From: an uncultured Nitrospinota bacterium
GTDB taxonomy: Bacteria; Nitrospinota; Nitrospinia; Nitrospinales; JAJDAT01
Reading direction: 5' to 3'
NCBI GenBank assembly: GCA_964570665.1
Contig: CAZMZH010000016.1
Coordinates: forward strand, 9,642 to 41,641
Length of the DNA stretch: 32,000 nt
In this document: in pieces, positions 18,055-21,358 of the stretch
Numbering within the stretch: the stretch's first letter is position 1
Layout of the letters: every line of letters starts with the position of its first letter
Position numbers and translations under genes: made by a program
The notes under the pieces: generated by a model
Told to the model about the DNA's origin: nothing
The model's input: the letters and a program-made list of their open reading frames with translations, nothing else
The model's database searches: none

Positions 18055-18456
18055 TCACTCAGATGAGCAACATCCAGCTTGACCGAAAACGCCATCATAA
18101 GGAATTTCACCTTGTAAACGCTTAACGTAATGATCCGGGTCCTTGCGGAATACTTCTGGGCAATAGGGGCATCGGCAAAAGAATACTTTCCATCCAGCAA
18201 TCTCCATTCGTACTGTCCACTGAACAGGTTTTTCCGCCAAACATGTTGGACATACTACTAAATCCTTGGTTTCTTGAAGATATCGTGGAGGATCTTCATT
18301 GAAGAGGTCAGTGCAGCCCTGGCAACAAAAAAAATATTCTATACCTTCGTAGGTAGTAGTTGTCCATCGATCTTCACCTATTCCAAGTCTAATTAAAGAA
18401 CAACCACAGGTTGGACAAATGGAGGTCACAATCTTTTTTGCTGAGTCAATTGTCAT
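18055..18456 (-). CDS. Cys-rich protein with two TRASH/YHS-like metal-binding units
   Basis: SICPTCGCSL...GIEYFFCCQGCTDLFNEDPPRYL and VVCPTCLAEKPVQWTV...GWKVFFCRCPYCPEVFRKDPDHYV; C-terminal CCSSE. Confidence 0.6.
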   Translation of the reverse strand: MTIDSAKKIVTSICPTCGCSLIRLGIGEDRWTTTTYEGIEYFFCCQGCTDLFNEDPPRYLQETKDLVVCPTCLAEKPVQWTVRMEIAGWKVFFCRCPYCPEVFRKDPDHYVKRLQGEIPYDGVFGQAGCCSSE

Positions 18457-18634
18457 TGCATTGGCTCTTTTCAGTTTGATTCATTTCATCACAACAAGAA
18501 GATTCTTTTTTCTTAGGTAGTAAATCCACTACGAAATCAATCAGTGACTGCAATTTGCTCCTTGTACATTCACAGGCTTCTTCTGAAGAAACTGTCTCCT
18601 CTTCTATCTTGTCCCAATCTACATATTTTTTCAT
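18446..18634 (-). CDS. Small Cys-containing protein, 62 aa, unknown function
   Basis: ACECT...SSCCDEM...SQC; overlaps both operon neighbours (11 bp and 4 bp). Confidence 0.6.
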   Translation of the reverse strand: MKKYVDWDKIEEETVSSEEACECTRSKLQSLIDFVVDLLPKKKESSCCDEMNQTEKSQCNDN

Positions 18635-19500
18635 AGCAACAACGTGCCTCCATAAACTAAAACCAAAAATACTAATATTTTTGCAAAAATTCCACCCGAT
18701 TGTTGGTTTTGCCCTAAATGTGAGTGTCCTTGTGCATCATATCCAATATACCCTCCCAAGGCAATTATCCCTAATGCGGCTTGGGTCTTTAGAACAGGAT
18801 CTGGAAATGATGTTATGGCGAGGGCTAAAATAGGCAGAGATAATGCTAATCCCTTATATAGTAACCTTTCAAATGGAATAAAGTGTTCAATCAATTGCAT
18901 AGAAAAAGCGAAATACCAGACTAAAGCGATCCCTTGTATCCACCAATCTGACGCAAAGAGAACTATTGGGATAATACAAACCAGGGTACAGAAAACAGCA
19001 TGACTGAGGCCCATTTTAAATCGTTCCCAATAGCCATACTCCAGAGCTTGCATATCTTTATTCTTGGTTAGTCCATTATTTAAGAATTCTTTTAAATCAG
19101 TAAAGTAAACCGGACCATATATACCCTCCCAACCATGTTCTTTTAGCTCTTTTCTTTTTACTCCAGCCACGGATAATTGTGGCAGTATTAATTTTTTGTG
19201 ATTCACTAATTTTGCTACATCGTATACTTTCAAGTGTGAAAGAACAGTGTCTGTAGTGAAAACTCCCTCGGCGGCTGCACACCAAACATTTGTTCCTTTG
19301 GTATTAACTACTAAGAGAAAGCAATCTAAAGCCTCCTTTTTTAAATATTCTTTTAAGTGCCTGACTGTGTAATCAAAATTACAGGTAACTAGGATCGGAG
19401 AAGTTTTATCCGGGTTTCCTACAGCAATGGTTTCTGGTTCGCATGGGAATCTGGCAAAACGAAATAGTGTTTGATAAATATCTTTAATCCAGCCAATCAT
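18631..19500 (-). CDS. HgcA-like corrinoid membrane protein (divergent)
   Basis: AVGNPDKTSPILVTCNFDYTVRHLKEYL, NTKGTNVWCAAAEGVFTTDTV (canonical HgcA cap helix is N(V/I)WCA(A/S)GK), KKLILPQLSVAGV, GIYGPVYFTDLKEFL, then a C-terminal multi-TM domain. Confidence 0.75.
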   Translation of the reverse strand: MIGWIKDIYQTLFRFARFPCEPETIAVGNPDKTSPILVTCNFDYTVRHLKEYLKKEALDCFLLVVNTKGTNVWCAAAEGVFTTDTVLSHLKVYDVAKLVNHKKLILPQLSVAGVKRKELKEHGWEGIYGPVYFTDLKEFLNNGLTKNKDMQALEYGYWERFKMGLSHAVFCTLVCIIPIVLFASDWWIQGIALVWYFAFSMQLIEHFIPFERLLYKGLALSLPILALAITSFPDPVLKTQAALGIIALGGYIGYDAQGHSHLGQNQQSGGIFAKILVFLVLVYGGTLLL

Positions 19501-20129
19501 TTTTTAATTTCCAAAAGGATAAACATTCCTAACATAAATGATTTGCAATTAACTTTTTTCAAACCTGCCTCCCTAACTTCCTCCTCAAAATTGGGAATTG
19601 CATTGGTAGTAGTTTGAGTCATTATCCAAGTGAGTAAACGCATTGGCAACCTGAAGGCATAGTAAAAGCATTTAGCTAGAAAGTTTGCTGGAATTATTTC
19701 ATCGCCAATAAAAACTTTTCCTCCATTCTTTAAAATTCTTTTAATCTGCTTCATTACATGAACCCGTTCTGCACGAGTCAGTTCGCTAAATGCCAGCGTA
19801 CTTAAGACGATATCAAACGATTCATCCTCCAAATGCTCATCAAGATTGCTCAAGGAAATATTTAGGTAGCTTGCGGTAGGAGAATTCCTTTTTGCCACTG
19901 CCAGCATACCGCTGTTGGCATCCACTCCGGTAACTTGTGCGCCTCTTTCAATACACATTTGCGCCAAGGTCCCTGTACCACAGCCCAAATCAAGGACTTC
20001 ATCTCCAGACTTGGTTTGAGCGGCAATTTGCTGTTTGATTTTAGTCAAAGATCCTAGAGTTAATAAACCCATACCAATATCGTAACGTTCAGGTCGAGAC
20101 TCAAGAATTTTCATGTAGACAAATGACAT
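19497..20129 (-). CDS. Class I SAM-dependent methyltransferase
   Basis: GDEVLDLGCGTGTLAQMCIERGAQVTGVDANSGMLAVAKRN, DIVLSTLAFSEL. Alternative start possible at MKILESRPERYD. Confidence 0.85.
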   Translation of the reverse strand: MSFVYMKILESRPERYDIGMGLLTLGSLTKIKQQIAAQTKSGDEVLDLGCGTGTLAQMCIERGAQVTGVDANSGMLAVAKRNSPTASYLNISLSNLDEHLEDESFDIVLSTLAFSELTRAERVHVMKQIKRILKNGGKVFIGDEIIPANFLAKCFYYAFRLPMRLLTWIMTQTTTNAIPNFEEEVREAGLKKVNCKSFMLGMFILLEIKK

Positions 20130-20138
20130 AATGGCCCC

Positions 20139-20849
20139 TTATCCAGTAATATTTTTTTTATGATCTAAATAAAATTCTTTCATTTCATTGTTGGCCGATA
20201 CCGTTGTTTGAAGACTACTCAAGAAGGAATCTATTTCTTTGCAATTGAGCGTGGCCAGAATATGATCATCACTAACTTCAGTGAAAGTGCGCATTCCAGT
20301 GCAACCAAGGGACATGCCAAAAGGTGATTTATTTAAGGTAGTTGGAATCACAGCACAGGCCGGACGGCCCAAGGCCATAGAATCCATGCTTTCAGACCAT
20401 TTGCAGCAGCCTAAGACTTCGTTATAAATCATCGCCTGAGAAGGTTTCAACCACATTAGAATAAGTTGCGGTTCCACAGGAAATTCCTTTAAAGGTCCAT
20501 ATACCACACCAGCTTTTTTCTCTTTTATTGTAGGGATGTTTGCAGGTTCGTCTTCTGAAAGGTAAGAGCATTCGCACATTTTTTTTACCAAACCACCCAG
20601 TTGTTCTTGGACTTCTTTGGGCATCTCGAACCCTAAAACCATGGAGCCTATTGGACAGTTATAATGTTTATTTGCCGGGGCATAGAATGCTTTTTTCTCT
20701 GCCATGCGCCAGAAAGTACAAAAAGAGGGAACTTGCTCTTCCATGATTTCTACACCTTGTGGTTGATCATCCACAAAGGCCATTGCTACGGGGGGGATAT
20801 CAAGCCCAAAAGCTGAAGAAATTTCCTGGTCAATCTTTGCGTTGTCCAT
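20139..20849 (-). CDS. DUF169-like (COG2043-like) protein with several conserved-looking cysteines
   Basis: GLDIPPVAMAFVDDQP, PSFCTFWRMAEKKAFYAPANKHYNCPIGSMVLGF, VYGPLKEFPVEPQLILMWLKPSQAMIYNEVLG, GRPACAVIP; GGGAGG Shine-Dalgarno. Confidence 0.65.
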   Translation of the reverse strand: MDNAKIDQEISSAFGLDIPPVAMAFVDDQPQGVEIMEEQVPSFCTFWRMAEKKAFYAPANKHYNCPIGSMVLGFEMPKEVQEQLGGLVKKMCECSYLSEDEPANIPTIKEKKAGVVYGPLKEFPVEPQLILMWLKPSQAMIYNEVLGCCKWSESMDSMALGRPACAVIPTTLNKSPFGMSLGCTGMRTFTEVSDDHILATLNCKEIDSFLSSLQTTVSANNEMKEFYLDHKKNITG

Positions 20850-20902
20850 GGTCGCCTCCCAATAAATTGATTAGCCTTTTTATAAGATTTTTTTTCATCT
20901 AT

Positions 20903-20933
20903 ACTATACAACCTGTAGTAACTACAGGTTCAA
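20903..20933 (-). promoter_or_regulatory. MerR-type promoter/operator driving the 20849-to-18055 operon: TTGAAC-19 bp-TATAGT with dyad AACCTGTAG-TTA-CTACAGGTT
   Basis: Perfect 9+3+9 inverted repeat at 20910-20930 lying between a -35 (20928-20933) and -10 (20903-20908) with the long 19-bp spacer typical of MerR-activated promoters. Confidence 0.85.
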
Positions 20934-20941
20934 GGATTATT

Positions 20942-21358
20942 ATGTCCATTAAAGAAAAAAAATTAAGCATTGGGCTCTTGTCCACTCAAACCAATTGTAA
21001 TATTGAGACAATTAGATATTACGAGAAGATTGGAATTTTCCCAAAACCTCCTAGAACTGAGGGAGGGCATCGTGTTTATAGTGAAAATCACTTAAAGCGG
21101 TTGGTATTTATTCGTCGTGGAAGGGAGCTGGGTTTTTCACTTGAGGATATTCGAGCTCTTTTGAAACTTATTGATGGTGGAGTTTCAACATGTCAGCAAG
21201 TGAAAAATATTACCCTTCATCATCAAGAGAATATTCATCAAAAGATTTTGGACTTAAAAAAGCTTGAAAAAATACTGTCCAAAATATCATCTCAATGTGA
21301 GGGGGGAGTAGTACCAGATTGTCCTATTCTGGATGTACTATTTGACCAAAAAAAGTAA
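20942..21358 (+). CDS. MerR-family metal-responsive regulator (138 aa; the ORF-track start at 20759 is too long)
   Basis: LSIGLLSTQTNCNIETIRYYEKIGIFPKPPRTEGGHRVYSE, ELGFSLEDIRALLKL, and three Cys in MerR/ZntR-like positions (STCQQV; SQCEGGVVPDCPIL). Confidence 0.92.
   Translation: MSIKEKKLSIGLLSTQTNCNIETIRYYEKIGIFPKPPRTEGGHRVYSENHLKRLVFIRRGRELGFSLEDIRALLKLIDGGVSTCQQVKNITLHHQENIHQKILDLKKLEKILSKISSQCEGGVVPDCPILDVLFDQKK

What the first reader, a model, noticed from the sequence alone, without database searches (positions are those of the whole stretch)
18055..21358. MerR-controlled operon built around a divergent HgcA-like corrinoid protein: candidate undescribed metal(loid) methyl-transfer or detoxification system
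Five minus-strand genes sit divergently from a MerR-type regulator and are packed with overlaps or a 9-bp gap. They encode a DUF169-like protein, a SAM methyltransferase, an HgcA-like protein, a 62-aa Cys-containing protein and a double TRASH/YHS-like Cys-rich protein. The HgcA-like protein keeps the strand order, TKG(T)NVWCAA, LILPQL, YGPV and C-terminal TM domain, but reads A-E where HgcA has G-K. No 2x[4Fe-4S] HgcB ferredoxin is present. The SAM methyltransferase and Cys-rich proteins could be alternative methyl-donor or metal-delivery partners. Substrate (Hg, As, Sb or another soft metal) and direction (methylation or demethylation) are unknown.
Basis: partly seen in the sequence, partly recalled or inferred. 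Interest (0 to 1): 0.88.

Follow-up and report, generated by a model that had tools for sequence, protein, structure and literature searches.

The report
Nitrospina HgcA-like mercury-linked corrinoid operon
This is another copy of the already published "HgcA-like" gene cluster of marine Nitrospina bacteria, a metal-switched operon built around a vitamin-B12-type methyl carrier that is suspected, but never shown, to make toxic methylmercury in the ocean.

Summary
Five tightly packed minus-strand genes (DUF169, SAM methyltransferase, HgcA-like corrinoid membrane protein, a 62-aa Cys protein, a YHS/TRASH protein) sit divergent from a MerR-family regulator, and the window holds no HgcB ferredoxin.

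It is not undescribed. The window comes from a Nitrospinaceae genome, and this is the "Nitrospina HgcA-like" locus (Gionfriddo 2016). Villar et al. (2019/2020) drew its context as MerR1, DUF169, UbiE and YHS. Its activity was still unconfirmed in 2026.

New here:
- The methyltransferase passes NCBIfam's CpaM model, the invariable partner of "HgcAB-like fusion" proteins (57/57 testable unfused loci, 5/5 distinct fused loci).
- The operon has a textbook MerR promoter: TTGAAC, a 19-bp spacer with a perfect 10-1-10 dyad, then TATAGT. It is exact in 28 related loci.
- Some relatives carry MerT- and MerP-like transport genes, or a second MerR with Hg-type C-X8-C spacing.
- The YHS protein ends in a vicinal Cys pair like the HgcB tail.
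- All genes tested have dN/dS of 0.04-0.09.

Most likely this is an inducible, SAM-fed corrinoid methyl transfer to a soft metal, probably Hg(II). The locus is already known; only the details listed above are new.

The parts
20942..21358 (+). MerR-family metal-sensing regulator, 138 aa.
   Evidence: Pfam MerR_1, MerR-DNA-bind and MerR. In NCBIfam the best matches are MerR(Hg) at 118 bits and CueR at 117.6 bits, both below their cutoffs. Cys residues sit at the three metal-ligand positions...STC... and C-X7-C-P-I-L. Orthologues at 74-92% identity are divergent from the operon in 23 of 33 testable loci. dN/dS 0.07.
20903..20933 (-). MerR-type promoter of the operon: -35 TTGAAC (20933-20928), 19-bp spacer, -10 TATAGT (20908-20903). 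A perfect 10-1-10 dyad, AACCTGTAGT-A-ACTACAGGTT, lies at 20910-20930 inside and across the spacer.
   Evidence: Read from the sequence. The dyad was found by the repeat finder at 100% complementarity. The sigma-70 scan allows only 16-18 bp spacers and misses it, as expected for an over-long MerR spacer. The 31-nt pattern is exact in 28 related loci, always between merR and DUF169 on the operon strand.
20139..20849 (-). DUF169 protein, 236 aa, first gene of the operon. Role unknown; it has four invariant Cys and one invariant His.
   Evidence: PF02596 E 3e-24. The AF2 model is confident (pLDDT 90, pTM 0.87) but has no PDB fold match (best E 0.18). C44, C65, C165, C183 and H62 are invariant in 31 homologues. 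It is present upstream in 41/45 testable loci overall but absent from the three 56-62% identical genome-contig relatives L002, L024 and L025. Homologues at about 50% identity elsewhere have unrelated contexts.
19497..20129 (-). CpaM, the corrinoid protein-associated class I SAM methyltransferase, 210 aa.
   Evidence: NCBIfam NF043040 at 253 bits against a cutoff of 180. It lies directly upstream of the HgcA-like gene, with stop/start overlap in nearly all of them, in 57/57 testable unfused loci and in all 5 distinct fused HgcAB-like loci seen (L003/L004, L005, L006/L007, L027, L028). It is absent next to the two true hgcAB pairs used as controls. One natural CpaM::HgcA-like fusion protein exists, P0358. 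It has no conserved ArsM-type cysteines.
18631..19500 (-). HgcA-like corrinoid protein, 289 aa: a cytoplasmic corrinoid-binding domain with the cap helix NVWCAAAEG (Cys74), followed by five TM helices. No ferredoxin domain.
   Evidence: Pfam CdhD. NCBIfam HgcAB_like 227.5 bits (cutoff 285; profile positions 1-225 of 350) and HgcA 138.6 bits (cutoff 275). PDB sequence match to CFeSP residues 320-439, with the Cys aligned to the CFeSP Thr. AF2 pLDDT 89. Foldseek finds the HgcAB model at E 3e-11 and CFeSP at rmsd 1.4-1.8 A. N71, V72, W73, C74 and A75 are invariant in 54 sequences. E78 is invariant in the unfused clade.
18446..18634 (-). s62, a 62-aa acidic protein with an invariant CECTRS motif and, usually, a vicinal CC pair in a hydrophilic tail. 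It occupies the position that hgcB holds in true hgcAB.
   Evidence: No Pfam or NCBIfam family. It follows the HgcA-like gene directly in 16/17 genome loci. CECTRS is invariant. CC is present in 41/56 distinct sequences. dN/dS 0.07-0.09. The family is tiny, with 14 representatives in 1.8 billion proteins. A paralogue lies next to a 2[4Fe-4S] ferredoxin in an Fe-S assembly cluster.
18055..18456 (-). Cys-rich YHS/TRASH protein, 133 aa: one clear YHS domain, a divergent second copy, and a C-terminal tail ...GQAGCCSSE.
   Evidence: PF04945 E 2.6e-13. The first half alone scores E 3e-11; the second half is similar to the first at E 3e-4. It lies downstream in 58/60 testable loci. A CC pair occurs in the last 22 residues in 46/49 distinct sequences.

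Best explanation
**What it is (shown).** This is the Nitrospinaceae 'HgcA-like' cassette, a self-contained six-gene unit found in many marine Nitrospina and Nitromaritima genomes.

**How it most likely works (inferred).**
1. A thiophilic divalent metal, most probably Hg(II), binds the three-Cys site of the MerR-family regulator.
2. The regulator then activates the sub-optimal 19-bp-spacer promoter by DNA distortion, as classic MerR regulators do.
3. The operon produces a membrane-anchored corrinoid protein whose cobalt is capped by Cys74, together with its dedicated class I methyltransferase CpaM.
4. CpaM uses S-adenosylmethionine to methylate Co(I) to CH3-Co(III). This replaces the methyl-tetrahydrofolate route assumed for true HgcA.
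5. The Cys-rich YHS/TRASH protein, with its flexible C-terminal Cys-Cys tail, and the 62-aa protein take over the metal hand-off role assigned to the Cys-Cys tail of HgcB. They present the metal to the methyl-corrinoid, which methylates it to methylmercury if the metal is Hg.
6. Electrons to regenerate Co(I) must come from outside the operon, because there is no HgcB. Candidates are a housekeeping ferredoxin, possibly recruited by the 62-aa protein, or the four-Cys DUF169 protein.

The step order, the substrate and the electron source are inferences. None has been tested biochemically.
For: **Identity**
- The closest relatives are Nitrospinaceae proteins at 80-92% identity.
- The same gene context is published.

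**Corrinoid chemistry**
- Pfam, NCBIfam and PDB sequence matches to the CFeSP and HgcA corrinoid domain.
- The predicted fold matches the HgcAB model and CFeSP.
- NVWC is invariant in 54 sequences.

**SAM input**
- CpaM passes its curated cutoff.
- It is adjacent in 57/57 unfused and 5/5 distinct fused loci, and absent from the two true hgcAB controls.
- One CpaM::HgcA-like fusion protein exists.

**Metal control**
- A MerR promoter with a 19-bp spacer and a perfect dyad, exact in 28 loci.
- The regulator carries three Cys at the ligand positions.

**Hg link**
- In 10 of 33 testable loci the regulator is replaced by a second MerR paralogue. It has the Hg-MerR C-X8-C-P-I-L spacing and a TTGACC-CTGTAC-N4-GTACAG operator with a 19-bp spacer. 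Its best NCBIfam match is MerR(Hg) at 123-127 bits.
- MerT-like genes (Pfam E 1e-7, NCBIfam E 3e-9) and MerP-like HMA genes are embedded in or next to the operon in L020, L023, L024, L026, L067 and L085-87.

**Hand-off**
- The YHS C-terminal CC pair is kept in 46/49 sequences.
- The HgcB C-terminal CC pair is needed for 95% of HgcAB activity and is proposed to deliver Hg(II) (Cooper 2020).

**Function retained**
- dN/dS is 0.04-0.09.
- Transcripts have been reported in Tara Oceans data (cited).
Against: - No Nitrospina carrying this gene has been cultured, and no activity has ever been shown.
- By profile score and identity the protein is closer to the fused HgcAB-like clade. The cultured members of that clade, Pyrococcus furiosus and Methanococcoides methylutens, made no methylmercury.
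- The cap helix fails the consensus 'true HgcA' motif. The Lys that is invariant in HgcA is an invariant Glu here.
- HgcB, including its essential Cys73, is missing from the window and from +/-6 kb in about 20 genome loci.
- The window's own MerR has C-X7-C spacing and scores equally well as CueR. All metal-specific NCBIfam models are below cutoff, so Hg specificity is not established.
- The MerT and MerP matches are below the curated cutoffs, and both genes are absent from the window itself.
- I know of no precedent for a class I Rossmann methyltransferase loading a corrinoid protein.
- Inducing synthesis of a more toxic product makes physiological sense only if that product leaves the cell.
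Confidence: 0.45

Rival explanations
1. The machinery is the same, but the physiological substrate is a different soft metal or metalloid (for example Cd, Pb, Sn, Bi, As(III), Sb(III), Se or Te), and Hg is not methylated in vivo.
For: - The window's MerR has C-X7-C rather than the C-X8-C of Hg-MerR. It scores the same against CueR and nearly the same against CadR/PbrR, all below cutoff.
- From memory only, its CTGTAG...CTACAG dyad resembles CadR/PbrR-type operators more than the Tn501 mer operator.
- Tested organisms of the fused clade did not methylate Hg.
- Fused loci are run by ArsR/SmtB regulators and lie among Cu/Zn/Cd genes such as Csp, an HMA ATPase and CzcCBA.
- The cap-helix Lys is replaced.
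Against: - MerT-like and MerP-like genes and a MerR paralogue with Hg-type spacing recur inside the same cassette.
- CpaM has no conserved ArsM-like Cys triad.
- From general chemistry, methyl-carbanion transfer from methylcobalamin is best established for Hg(II).
Confidence: 0.2
2. The metal link is only regulatory or protective. The HgcA-like/CpaM pair methylates an organic or cellular acceptor such as a thiol, lipid or cofactor as part of a metal or oxidative stress response. The YHS protein merely buffers Cu or another metal.
For: - The universally conserved core is only CpaM plus the corrinoid protein. Regulators and accessory genes differ between clades: ArsR with two unknown membrane proteins in fused loci, MerR with DUF169, s62 and YHS here.
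- YHS domains occur in many Cu-related proteins (general knowledge).
- The function of the transmembrane domain is unknown.
- No Hg methylation was seen in the fused-clade organisms tested.
Against: - The Cys-on cap helix is so far specific to HgcA-type proteins. CFeSP has Thr at that position.
- Vicinal-Cys tails and MerT/MerP-like genes point to delivery of a metal to the enzyme, not away from it.
- In the fused operons the two unknown proteins also carry a membrane GCCGSP motif and a periplasmic CxxxxC motif reminiscent of MerT and MerP, although support is only a weak E 0.06 hit.
Confidence: 0.15
3. The system runs the other way, as a demethylase. Co(I) abstracts the methyl group from methylmercury as a detoxification step, and CpaM with SAM serves only for reductive reactivation of oxidised corrinoid, as the activation domain of methionine synthase does.
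For: - MerR-type induction fits a resistance function better than production of a toxin.
- Neither merA nor merB lies next to the cassette in any locus, so it could be an alternative organomercury route.
- Nitrospina live where methylmercury peaks.
Against: - An acceptor for the methyl group on CH3-Co(III) is not encoded. SAM-dependent class I methyltransferases are essentially irreversible (general knowledge).
- CpaM is unrelated to the MetH activation domain and looks like a stoichiometric partner: it is always adjacent, translationally coupled and once fused.
- MerR regulators sense Hg(II) rather than methylmercury unless broadened (general knowledge).
Confidence: 0.08
4. The cluster is a decaying remnant of an hgcAB or fused hgcAB system that lost its ferredoxin and no longer has a function.
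For: - HgcB or the ferredoxin domain is missing.
- The cap-helix consensus is broken.
- Some loci carry frameshifted thioredoxin-like genes or an IS insertion, as in L012, L015 and L019.
Against: - dN/dS is 0.04-0.09 for every gene tested.
- Gene order, overlaps and the promoter are conserved in about 70 contigs down to 56% protein identity.
- The clade has its own invariant residues, including E78 and a QGHSH loop.
- Transcripts have been reported.
Confidence: 0.02

Closest known systems
Nitrospina 'HgcA-like' gene cluster (Gionfriddo et al. 2016, Nat Microbiol; Villar et al. 2019/2020, Fig. 1b; Tada et al. 2020, 2021, 2026; Lin et al. 2021, 2023)
   Same: Same lineage and same genes in the same order: MerR, DUF169, UbiE-type methyltransferase, HgcA-like, YHS. 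Protein identity is 80-92% to Nitrospina/Nitromaritima MAGs and SAGs, including AAA288-L16, LS_NOB and SI073_bin113, which those papers used.
   Different: Nothing essential differs; the window is another member. It is the minimal variant, with only 9 bp between DUF169 and the methyltransferase, where many relatives carry a thioredoxin-like gene and/or MerT- and MerP-like genes. The papers I could read do not mention the 62-aa gene, the CpaM identity of the methyltransferase or the promoter.
HgcAB mercury methylation pair (Parks et al. 2013; NCBIfam NF040863 and NF040864)
   Same: A CFeSP-type corrinoid-binding domain with the NVWC cap helix and the Cys ligand. A transmembrane domain of five helices ending in a C-terminal TM helix. 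A small gene overlapping the stop codon of hgcA.
   Different: No HgcB ferredoxin. The cap helix reads AAAE instead of AAGK. The HgcA profile score is 138.6 against a cutoff of 275. A dedicated SAM methyltransferase is present that the two true hgcAB control loci lack. The regulator is MerR rather than ArsR-type.
HgcAB-like fusion protein with CpaM (NCBIfam NF043039 / NF043040; 'fused HgcAB' of Podar et al. 2015)
   Same: The best profile match is 227.5 bits over the whole HgcA part. Identity is highest to this clade (46% against 40% to true HgcA in the corrinoid domain). The CpaM partner lies immediately upstream. The cap-helix Lys is lost.
   Different: There is no C-terminal 2[4Fe-4S] domain; a fifth TM helix takes its place. 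The regulator is MerR instead of ArsR/SmtB. The accessory genes are DUF169, s62 and YHS instead of the two conserved unknown proteins of about 140 and 165 aa. The window's protein scores below the family cutoff of 285.
mer operon (MerR-MerT-MerP-MerA)
   Same: A divergent MerR-family activator. A promoter with a 19-bp spacer and a dyad operator. Vicinal-Cys hand-off motifs. MerT-like and MerP-like genes inside the cassette in some relatives.
   Different: There is no MerA or MerB. The enzymatic core is a corrinoid methyl carrier. The MerR, MerT and MerP matches are all below the curated cutoffs.
Corrinoid iron-sulfur protein AcsC/CdhE of the Wood-Ljungdahl pathway
   Same: The same corrinoid-binding fold (rmsd 1.4-1.8 A over about 126 residues, 28-31% identity).
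   Different: Only the C-terminal corrinoid domain is shared. There is no [4Fe-4S] N-terminal domain, no TIM-barrel or small subunit, a Cys in place of the Thr over the cobalt, and a membrane anchor.

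Membership tests
True HgcA (NCBIfam NF040863; Hg-MATE high-stringency definition) | CFeSP-type corrinoid-binding domain | tested here: met
   Pfam CdhD E 1e-15. PDB CFeSP E 1.4e-12. Foldseek rmsd 1.4-1.8 A.
True HgcA (NCBIfam NF040863; Hg-MATE high-stringency definition) | Cap-helix cysteine (Cys93 of ND132) | tested here: met
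   Cys74 in NVWC is invariant in 54 aligned sequences. It aligns to the CFeSP Thr.
True HgcA (NCBIfam NF040863; Hg-MATE high-stringency definition) | Full cap-helix motif N(V/I)WC(A/S)(A/G/S)GK | tested here: not met
   The window reads NVWCAAAE. The six accepted motifs all end in GK. True HgcA has K in 11/11 sequences; the unfused clade has E in 13/13.
True HgcA (NCBIfam NF040863; Hg-MATE high-stringency definition) | Score at or above the curated equivalog cutoff | tested here: not met
   138.6 bits against a cutoff of 275.
True HgcA (NCBIfam NF040863; Hg-MATE high-stringency definition) | Adjacent hgcB (2[4Fe-4S] ferredoxin with Cys73 and a C-terminal Cys) | tested here: not met
   No ferredoxin motif or HgcB-like match in the window or in the related loci. 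The controls L036 and L037 do have it.
True HgcA (NCBIfam NF040863; Hg-MATE high-stringency definition) | C-terminal transmembrane domain | tested here: met
   AF2 predicts five helices between residues 157 and 288. The hydrophobicity scan is consistent.
True HgcA (NCBIfam NF040863; Hg-MATE high-stringency definition) | Hg(II) methylation activity | not testable with these tools
   The literature states it is unconfirmed for Nitrospina.
HgcAB-like fusion protein (NCBIfam NF043039) | Score at or above the curated cutoff over the full profile | tested here: not met
   227.5 bits against a cutoff of 285. Only profile positions 1-225 of 350 are matched. A genuine fused member scores 366.
HgcAB-like fusion protein (NCBIfam NF043039) | C-terminal 2[4Fe-4S] ferredoxin domain fused to the HgcA part | tested here: not met
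   The protein ends at residue 289 with a TM helix and has no CX2CX2CX3C motif.
HgcAB-like fusion protein (NCBIfam NF043039) | CpaM methyltransferase gene immediately upstream | tested here: met
   There is a 4-nt overlap in the window. The arrangement holds in 57/57 testable unfused loci and 5/5 distinct fused loci.
CpaM, corrinoid protein-associated methyltransferase (NCBIfam NF043040) | Score at or above the curated cutoff, full length | tested here: met
   253 bits against a cutoff of 180, covering residues 2-209 and profile positions 1-215 of 216.
CpaM, corrinoid protein-associated methyltransferase (NCBIfam NF043040) | Transfers methyl from SAM to the corrinoid protein | not testable with these tools
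   The NCBIfam model type is 'hypoth_equivalog'. No paper on it was found.
Hg-responsive MerR (TIGR02051) | Score at or above the curated cutoff | tested here: not met
   118.1 bits against a cutoff of 150.85, tied with CueR at 117.6.
Hg-responsive MerR (TIGR02051) | Three Cys ligands (C79/82, C114/117, C123/126; C-X8-C) | tested here: inconclusive
   Three Cys are present at the corresponding places, but the spacing is C-X7-C. The co-directional paralogue found in other loci has C-X8-C-P-I-L. The reference numbering is from memory.
Hg-responsive MerR (TIGR02051) | Target promoter with a 19-20 bp spacer and a dyad operator between -35 and -10 | tested here: met
   TTGAAC, 19 bp, TATAGT, with a perfect 10-1-10 dyad. 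The pattern is conserved in 28 loci.
mer resistance operon | MerA reductase (with or without MerB), plus MerT and MerP | tested here: not met
   None is present in the window. MerT- and MerP-like genes occur only in some relatives and score below cutoffs.

The most novel reading that the evidence does not exclude
The cassette is a complete, HgcB-independent mercury methylation module. It is switched on by Hg(II) itself and fed by SAM through CpaM. The metal is delivered by the Cys-Cys tails of the YHS and 62-aa proteins. Electrons come from a housekeeping ferredoxin docked by the 62-aa protein, whose paralogue sits beside a 2[4Fe-4S] ferredoxin gene. This would make (di)methylation an inducible detoxification or export response of micro-aerophilic nitrite oxidisers, and a direct source of methylated mercury in oxic subsurface ocean water.
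Probability: 0.25. Interest if true: 0.85.

Novelty: already known. Interest (0 to 1): 0.45.

Why it matters
Nitrospina-type hgcA-like genes are reported as the most abundant and widespread hgcA homologues in the open ocean. Whether they make methylmercury decides how marine methylmercury budgets, and metagenomic 'methylator' counts, should be read.

The locus itself is not new. This analysis does sharpen what has to be tested:
- The unit to express is the whole cassette, not hgcA alone.
- The predicted methyl donor is SAM through CpaM, not methyl-tetrahydrofolate.
- The predicted inducer is a soft metal acting through a classic MerR promoter.
- The protein should be grouped with the CpaM-linked, non-Lys cap-helix clades, whose tested members were negative, rather than with proven HgcA.

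Tried and rejected
- **Host guess.** It was rejected because all close homologues are from Nitrospinaceae.
- **The 62-aa protein as a relic of the HgcB tail.** The idea came from its position and from CEC...CC echoing CMECGAC...CC. hhalign against 46 fused HgcB tails gave probability 0.07%, and hmmsearch scores were about 0. It is not supported.
- **A Rosetta-stone fusion of the 62-aa domain with a ferredoxin.** None was found among the 14 representatives in 1.8 billion proteins.
- **Branching order.** A neighbour-joining bootstrap gave three clades but did not resolve their order (24, 39 and 15% for the three pairings). I therefore rely on profile scores and on Lin et al. 2023.
- **RNA elements.** No cobalamin riboswitch, other Rfam RNA or tRNA was found in the window.
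- **Conserved flanks.** None were found. The RND pump and two-component system of the window are not next to the cassette elsewhere.
- **Literature.** A search for 'CpaM' was swamped by unrelated acronyms. Gionfriddo 2016 is not held in the library.

Full report
**Observation**

- DUF169: 20139-20849
- Class I SAM methyltransferase: 19497-20129
- HgcA-like: 18631-19500
- 62-aa ORF (called s62 in this report): 18446-18634
- 133-aa Cys-rich protein: 18055-18456
- MerR-family gene on the plus strand

The five operon genes lie on the minus strand. The junctions are a 9-bp gap, two 4-nt overlaps and an 11-nt overlap. Pfam confirms DUF169, the methyltransferase fold, the CdhD/CFeSP C-terminal region, YHS and the MerR domains.

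The MerR ORF listed from a GTG at 20759 almost certainly starts at the ATG at 20942. That gives 138 aa and matches the orthologues end to end.

Only the first half of the 133-aa protein scores as YHS. The second half is a diverged internal duplicate.

The window contains no CX2CX2CX3C ferredoxin motif in a real ORF, no HgcB-like match, no Rfam RNA and no tRNA.

**What it is**

The HgcA-like protein's closest relatives are all 289 aa, 80-92% identical, and come from Nitrospina, Candidatus Nitromaritima and other Nitrospinaceae genomes. They include the single-cell genome AAA288-L16 and the MAGs LS_NOB and SI073_bin113.

This is therefore the 'Nitrospina HgcA-like' gene first reported from Antarctic sea ice in 2016. 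It has since been found to dominate hgcA homologues in Tara Oceans and Pacific metagenomes.

Villar et al. already drew its genomic context as MerR1, UbiE methyltransferase, DUF169 and YHS. They also proposed Hg-induced control by MerR. Lin et al. 2023 noted that all Nitrospina lack a neighbouring hgcB, and placed the gene among the other members of the fused-hgcAB clade. A 2026 paper still says the methylation capacity of the lineage is unconfirmed because no isolate carries the gene.

The claim 'undescribed' is not.

**The corrinoid protein**

- NCBIfam's best model is 'HgcAB-like fusion protein' at 227.5 bits (cutoff 285). It matches only the HgcA part of the profile, positions 1-225 of 350.
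- The true-HgcA model gives 138.6 bits against a cutoff of 275.
- Residues 20-140 align to the corrinoid-binding domain of the CFeSP large subunit (E 1.4e-12). Cys74 lies opposite the CFeSP Thr.
- An AlphaFold model built on 54 homologues is confident (pLDDT 89). It shows an alpha/beta domain followed by five long helices.
- Foldseek finds the published HgcAB integrative model first (E 3e-11). It then finds CFeSP corrinoid domains at 1.4-1.8 A.

The cap helix separates three groups cleanly:

| Group | Cap helix | Count |
|---|---|---|
| True HgcA | NVWCAAGKG | 11/11 |
| Fused proteins | NVWCAA(G/A)(G/A)G, no Lys | 30/30 |
| Nitrospina-type unfused proteins | NVWCAA(A/V)EG | 13/13 |

The last motif fails the six 'high-stringency' motifs of the community protocol.

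A quick neighbour-joining analysis recovers the unfused clade (91% bootstrap) and the true HgcA clade (95%) but does not resolve their order. Mean identity is higher to the fused group (46%) than to true HgcA (40%).

Unlike the fused proteins, which have four TM helices and then the ferredoxin domain, the Nitrospina type ends in a fifth TM helix, as true HgcA does.

**The methyltransferase is the most informative partner**

It passes NCBIfam NF043040, 'corrinoid protein-associated methyltransferase CpaM', at 253 bits against a cutoff of 180.
- A CpaM-type gene lies immediately upstream of the corrinoid gene in every unfused locus that can be tested: 20/20 genome contigs and 37/37 metagenome contigs.
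- The same holds in all five distinct fused HgcAB-like loci examined.
- Two true hgcAB loci used as controls have hgcB but no methyltransferase.
- One metagenomic protein, P0358, is an in-frame CpaM::HgcA-like fusion.
- CpaM has no conserved cysteines of the ArsM kind.

I found no paper on CpaM. Only Villar et al. mention a 'UbiE' gene next to hgcA.

The simplest reading is that CpaM loads the corrinoid with a methyl group from SAM. This is an inference from association.

**Regulation**

The 92-bp gap between merR and DUF169 carries, on the operon strand, TTGAAC, 19 bp, then TATAGT. A perfect 10-1-10 palindrome, AACCTGTAGT-A-ACTACAGGTT (20910-20930), spans the spacer. A strong ribosome-binding site (GGGAGG) follows.

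An over-long 19-bp spacer with a central dyad is the hallmark of MerR-family activation. The generic sigma-70 scan allows only 16-18 bp spacers and does not report it. The 31-nt pattern is exact in 28 related loci.

The regulator has Cys at the three positions used by divalent soft-metal sensors, but with C-X7-C spacing. It scores equally against the MerR(Hg) and CueR models, and both scores are below cutoff.

In 10 of 33 testable loci a different MerR paralogue (33-39% identical) lies co-directionally upstream. This paralogue has:
- C-X8-C-P-I-L spacing;
- MerR(Hg) as its best model, at 123-127 bits;
- a promoter TTGACC-CTGTAC-N4-GTACAGGGT followed by GTAGGT or GTAAGT, again with 19 bp.

From memory, this promoter is very close to the Tn501 mer operator.

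**Conservation and variable content**

| Gene, relative to HgcA-like | HgcA-centred genome loci | s62-centred metagenome loci |
|---|---|---|
| CpaM directly upstream | 20/20 | 37/37 |
| 62-aa gene directly downstream | 16/17 | 51/51 (by design of the search) |
| YHS downstream | 14/16 | 44/44 |
| DUF169 upstream | 15/18 | 26/27 |
| MerR-family gene upstream | 14/16 | 19/19 |

They lack DUF169.
- The flanks differ from locus to locus, and integrases or an IS element are sometimes nearby. An 84%-identical copy sits in a complete Nitrospirales chromosome. The unit therefore moves.
- dN/dS is 0.04-0.09 for MerR, DUF169, CpaM, HgcA-like and the 62-aa gene.
- The site between DUF169 and cpaM is variable. 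It is 9 bp in the window. Many relatives have a Thioredoxin_3/MTH895-ArsE-like CPxC protein there.
- In L020, L023 and L067 that site holds a 110-aa MerT-like protein, with CC in TM1 and an ECCETP tail (Pfam MerT E 1e-7; NCBIfam MerT/MerTP E 3e-9; both below cutoff).
- In L023 and L026 it also holds a periplasmic HMA protein of MerP type.
- L024 and L085-87 have MerR and MerT-like genes beside the cassette (L024 also MerP-like).

These are the strongest arguments here for Hg(II) as the metal.

**The small Cys proteins**

- The YHS protein ends in a hydrophilic tail with a vicinal Cys pair in 46/49 distinct sequences.
- The 62-aa protein has an invariant CECTRS motif, and a CC pair in 41/56 sequences.
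- In HgcAB the C-terminal Cys pair of HgcB is required for about 95% of activity. [quoted passage not shown] 2020).
- The 62-aa gene sits exactly where hgcB sits, overlapping the hgcA stop, but shows no detectable similarity to HgcB tails.

A scan centred on the 62-aa protein turned up a paralogue whose first 35 residues are 74% identical. It lies between a NifU-like gene and a 2[4Fe-4S] ferredoxin gene, next to 2-oxoacid:ferredoxin oxidoreductase and IscA genes. This hints that the domain works with a ferredoxin. No fusion confirms the link.

DUF169 remains uninterpreted. Its model is confident, it has four invariant Cys and one invariant His, and it has no fold match and no informative context.

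**Mechanism and rivals**

I think the most likely account has these steps:
1. A soft metal, probably Hg(II), activates the MerR promoter.
2. CpaM methylates Co(I) from SAM.
3. The Cys-rich proteins hand the metal to the methyl-corrinoid.
4. A methylated metal is released.
5. Co(I) is regenerated by a reductant that the operon does not encode.

Only the parts list, the promoter and the associations are shown. Every chemical step is inferred.

Evidence against Hg methylation:
- the negative tests on cultured fused-clade organisms;
- the invariant Lys-to-Glu change;
- the absence of HgcB with its essential Cys73;
- the ambiguous metal specificity of this window's MerR.

The rivals are another soft metal or metalloid as substrate, a non-metal acceptor with purely regulatory metal sensing, demethylation with CpaM serving only for reactivation, and a decaying relic. 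The relic idea is strongly disfavoured by selection and conservation.

**Verdict**

It is an additional member of a gene cluster already in the literature, so its novelty is low.

Its function is a recognised open question of real environmental weight. The additions made here turn that question into concrete experiments. They are the CpaM link to the fused clade, the MerR promoter architecture, the embedded MerT- and MerP-like genes, the conserved Cys-Cys tails, and the 62-aa gene with its ferredoxin-side paralogue.

Noticed in passing
L092 2699-2977, L093 266-544, L094 633-875 (also L089 912-1028): A paralogue of the 62-aa protein, 80-92 aa long. Its first 35 residues are 74% identical, CECTRS included, but it has a Lys/Glu/Arg-rich tail and no CC pair. 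It lies between a NifU-like gene and a 2[4Fe-4S] ferredoxin gene, next to two 2-oxoacid:ferredoxin oxidoreductase beta subunits and an IscA/HesB gene. This suggests the domain is ferredoxin-associated.
   Followed up: partly
L003 5466-9233, L005 6122-9149, L006 6074-9212: Fused HgcAB-like loci share a five-gene operon: an ArsR/SmtB regulator with an N-terminal CC pair, a 140-aa membrane-anchored protein with an ESCG...TCA motif, a 165-aa membrane protein with a GCCGSP motif in a TM helix (weak MerT-like hit, E 0.06), CpaM, and the fusion protein. The two unknowns look like a MerP/MerT-style uptake pair. The neighbours are Cu/Zn/Cd genes.
   Followed up: partly
P0358 (metagenome protein, 324 aa, cut by the contig end): A single natural in-frame fusion of CpaM to an HgcA(B)-like corrinoid domain through a linker of about 25 residues.
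   Followed up: no
window 18631-19500, protein residues 253-268: The loop between TM4 and TM5 (GYDAQGHSHLGQNQQSG) is almost invariant in the unfused clade (D255, Q257, G258, S260, H261, Q264, Q266, S268). By topology it faces the cytoplasm, at the point where fused proteins attach their ferredoxin domain. It could be a docking or metal site.
   Followed up: no
L015 (OY820905.2, complete 4.6-Mb chromosome labelled Nitrospirales), L025 (Methyloglobulus MAG), L002 (integrases at both ends of the 20-kb locus): The cassette occurs outside Nitrospinaceae. The copy in a Nitrospirales chromosome is 84% identical at protein level and has an IS-type transposase inserted between DUF169 and cpaM. This indicates horizontal transfer. 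Some other assignments, such as the Flavobacteriales and Chloroflexota bins, may be binning errors.
   Followed up: partly
window 9424-17288 (-): Immediately downstream of the cassette on the same strand lies an RND efflux system (outer-membrane factor, CusB/HlyD-type adaptor, AcrB-family pump). With it is an OmpR-type two-component system whose best subfamily matches are the heavy-metal CztS/SilS/CopS and CztR/SilR/CopR models, below cutoff. This neighbour is not conserved in other cassette loci.
   Followed up: partly
window 131-4195 (-): A bacterial proteasome locus: proteasome subunit, Pup ligase-family protein (PafA/Dop) and Mpa/ARC-type AAA ATPase.
   Followed up: no
window 17289-18054: A 766-bp AT-rich stretch (GC about 0.35) with no sizeable ORF, no Rfam hit and no convincing terminator lies between the end of the YHS gene and the response-regulator gene.
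   Followed up: no
window 21787-22969: On the merR side lie a DUF2231 membrane protein (weak CopD-like hit) and a divergent LuxR/GerE-type regulator (LIC13292-family, below cutoff). They are not conserved next to the cassette elsewhere.
   Followed up: no
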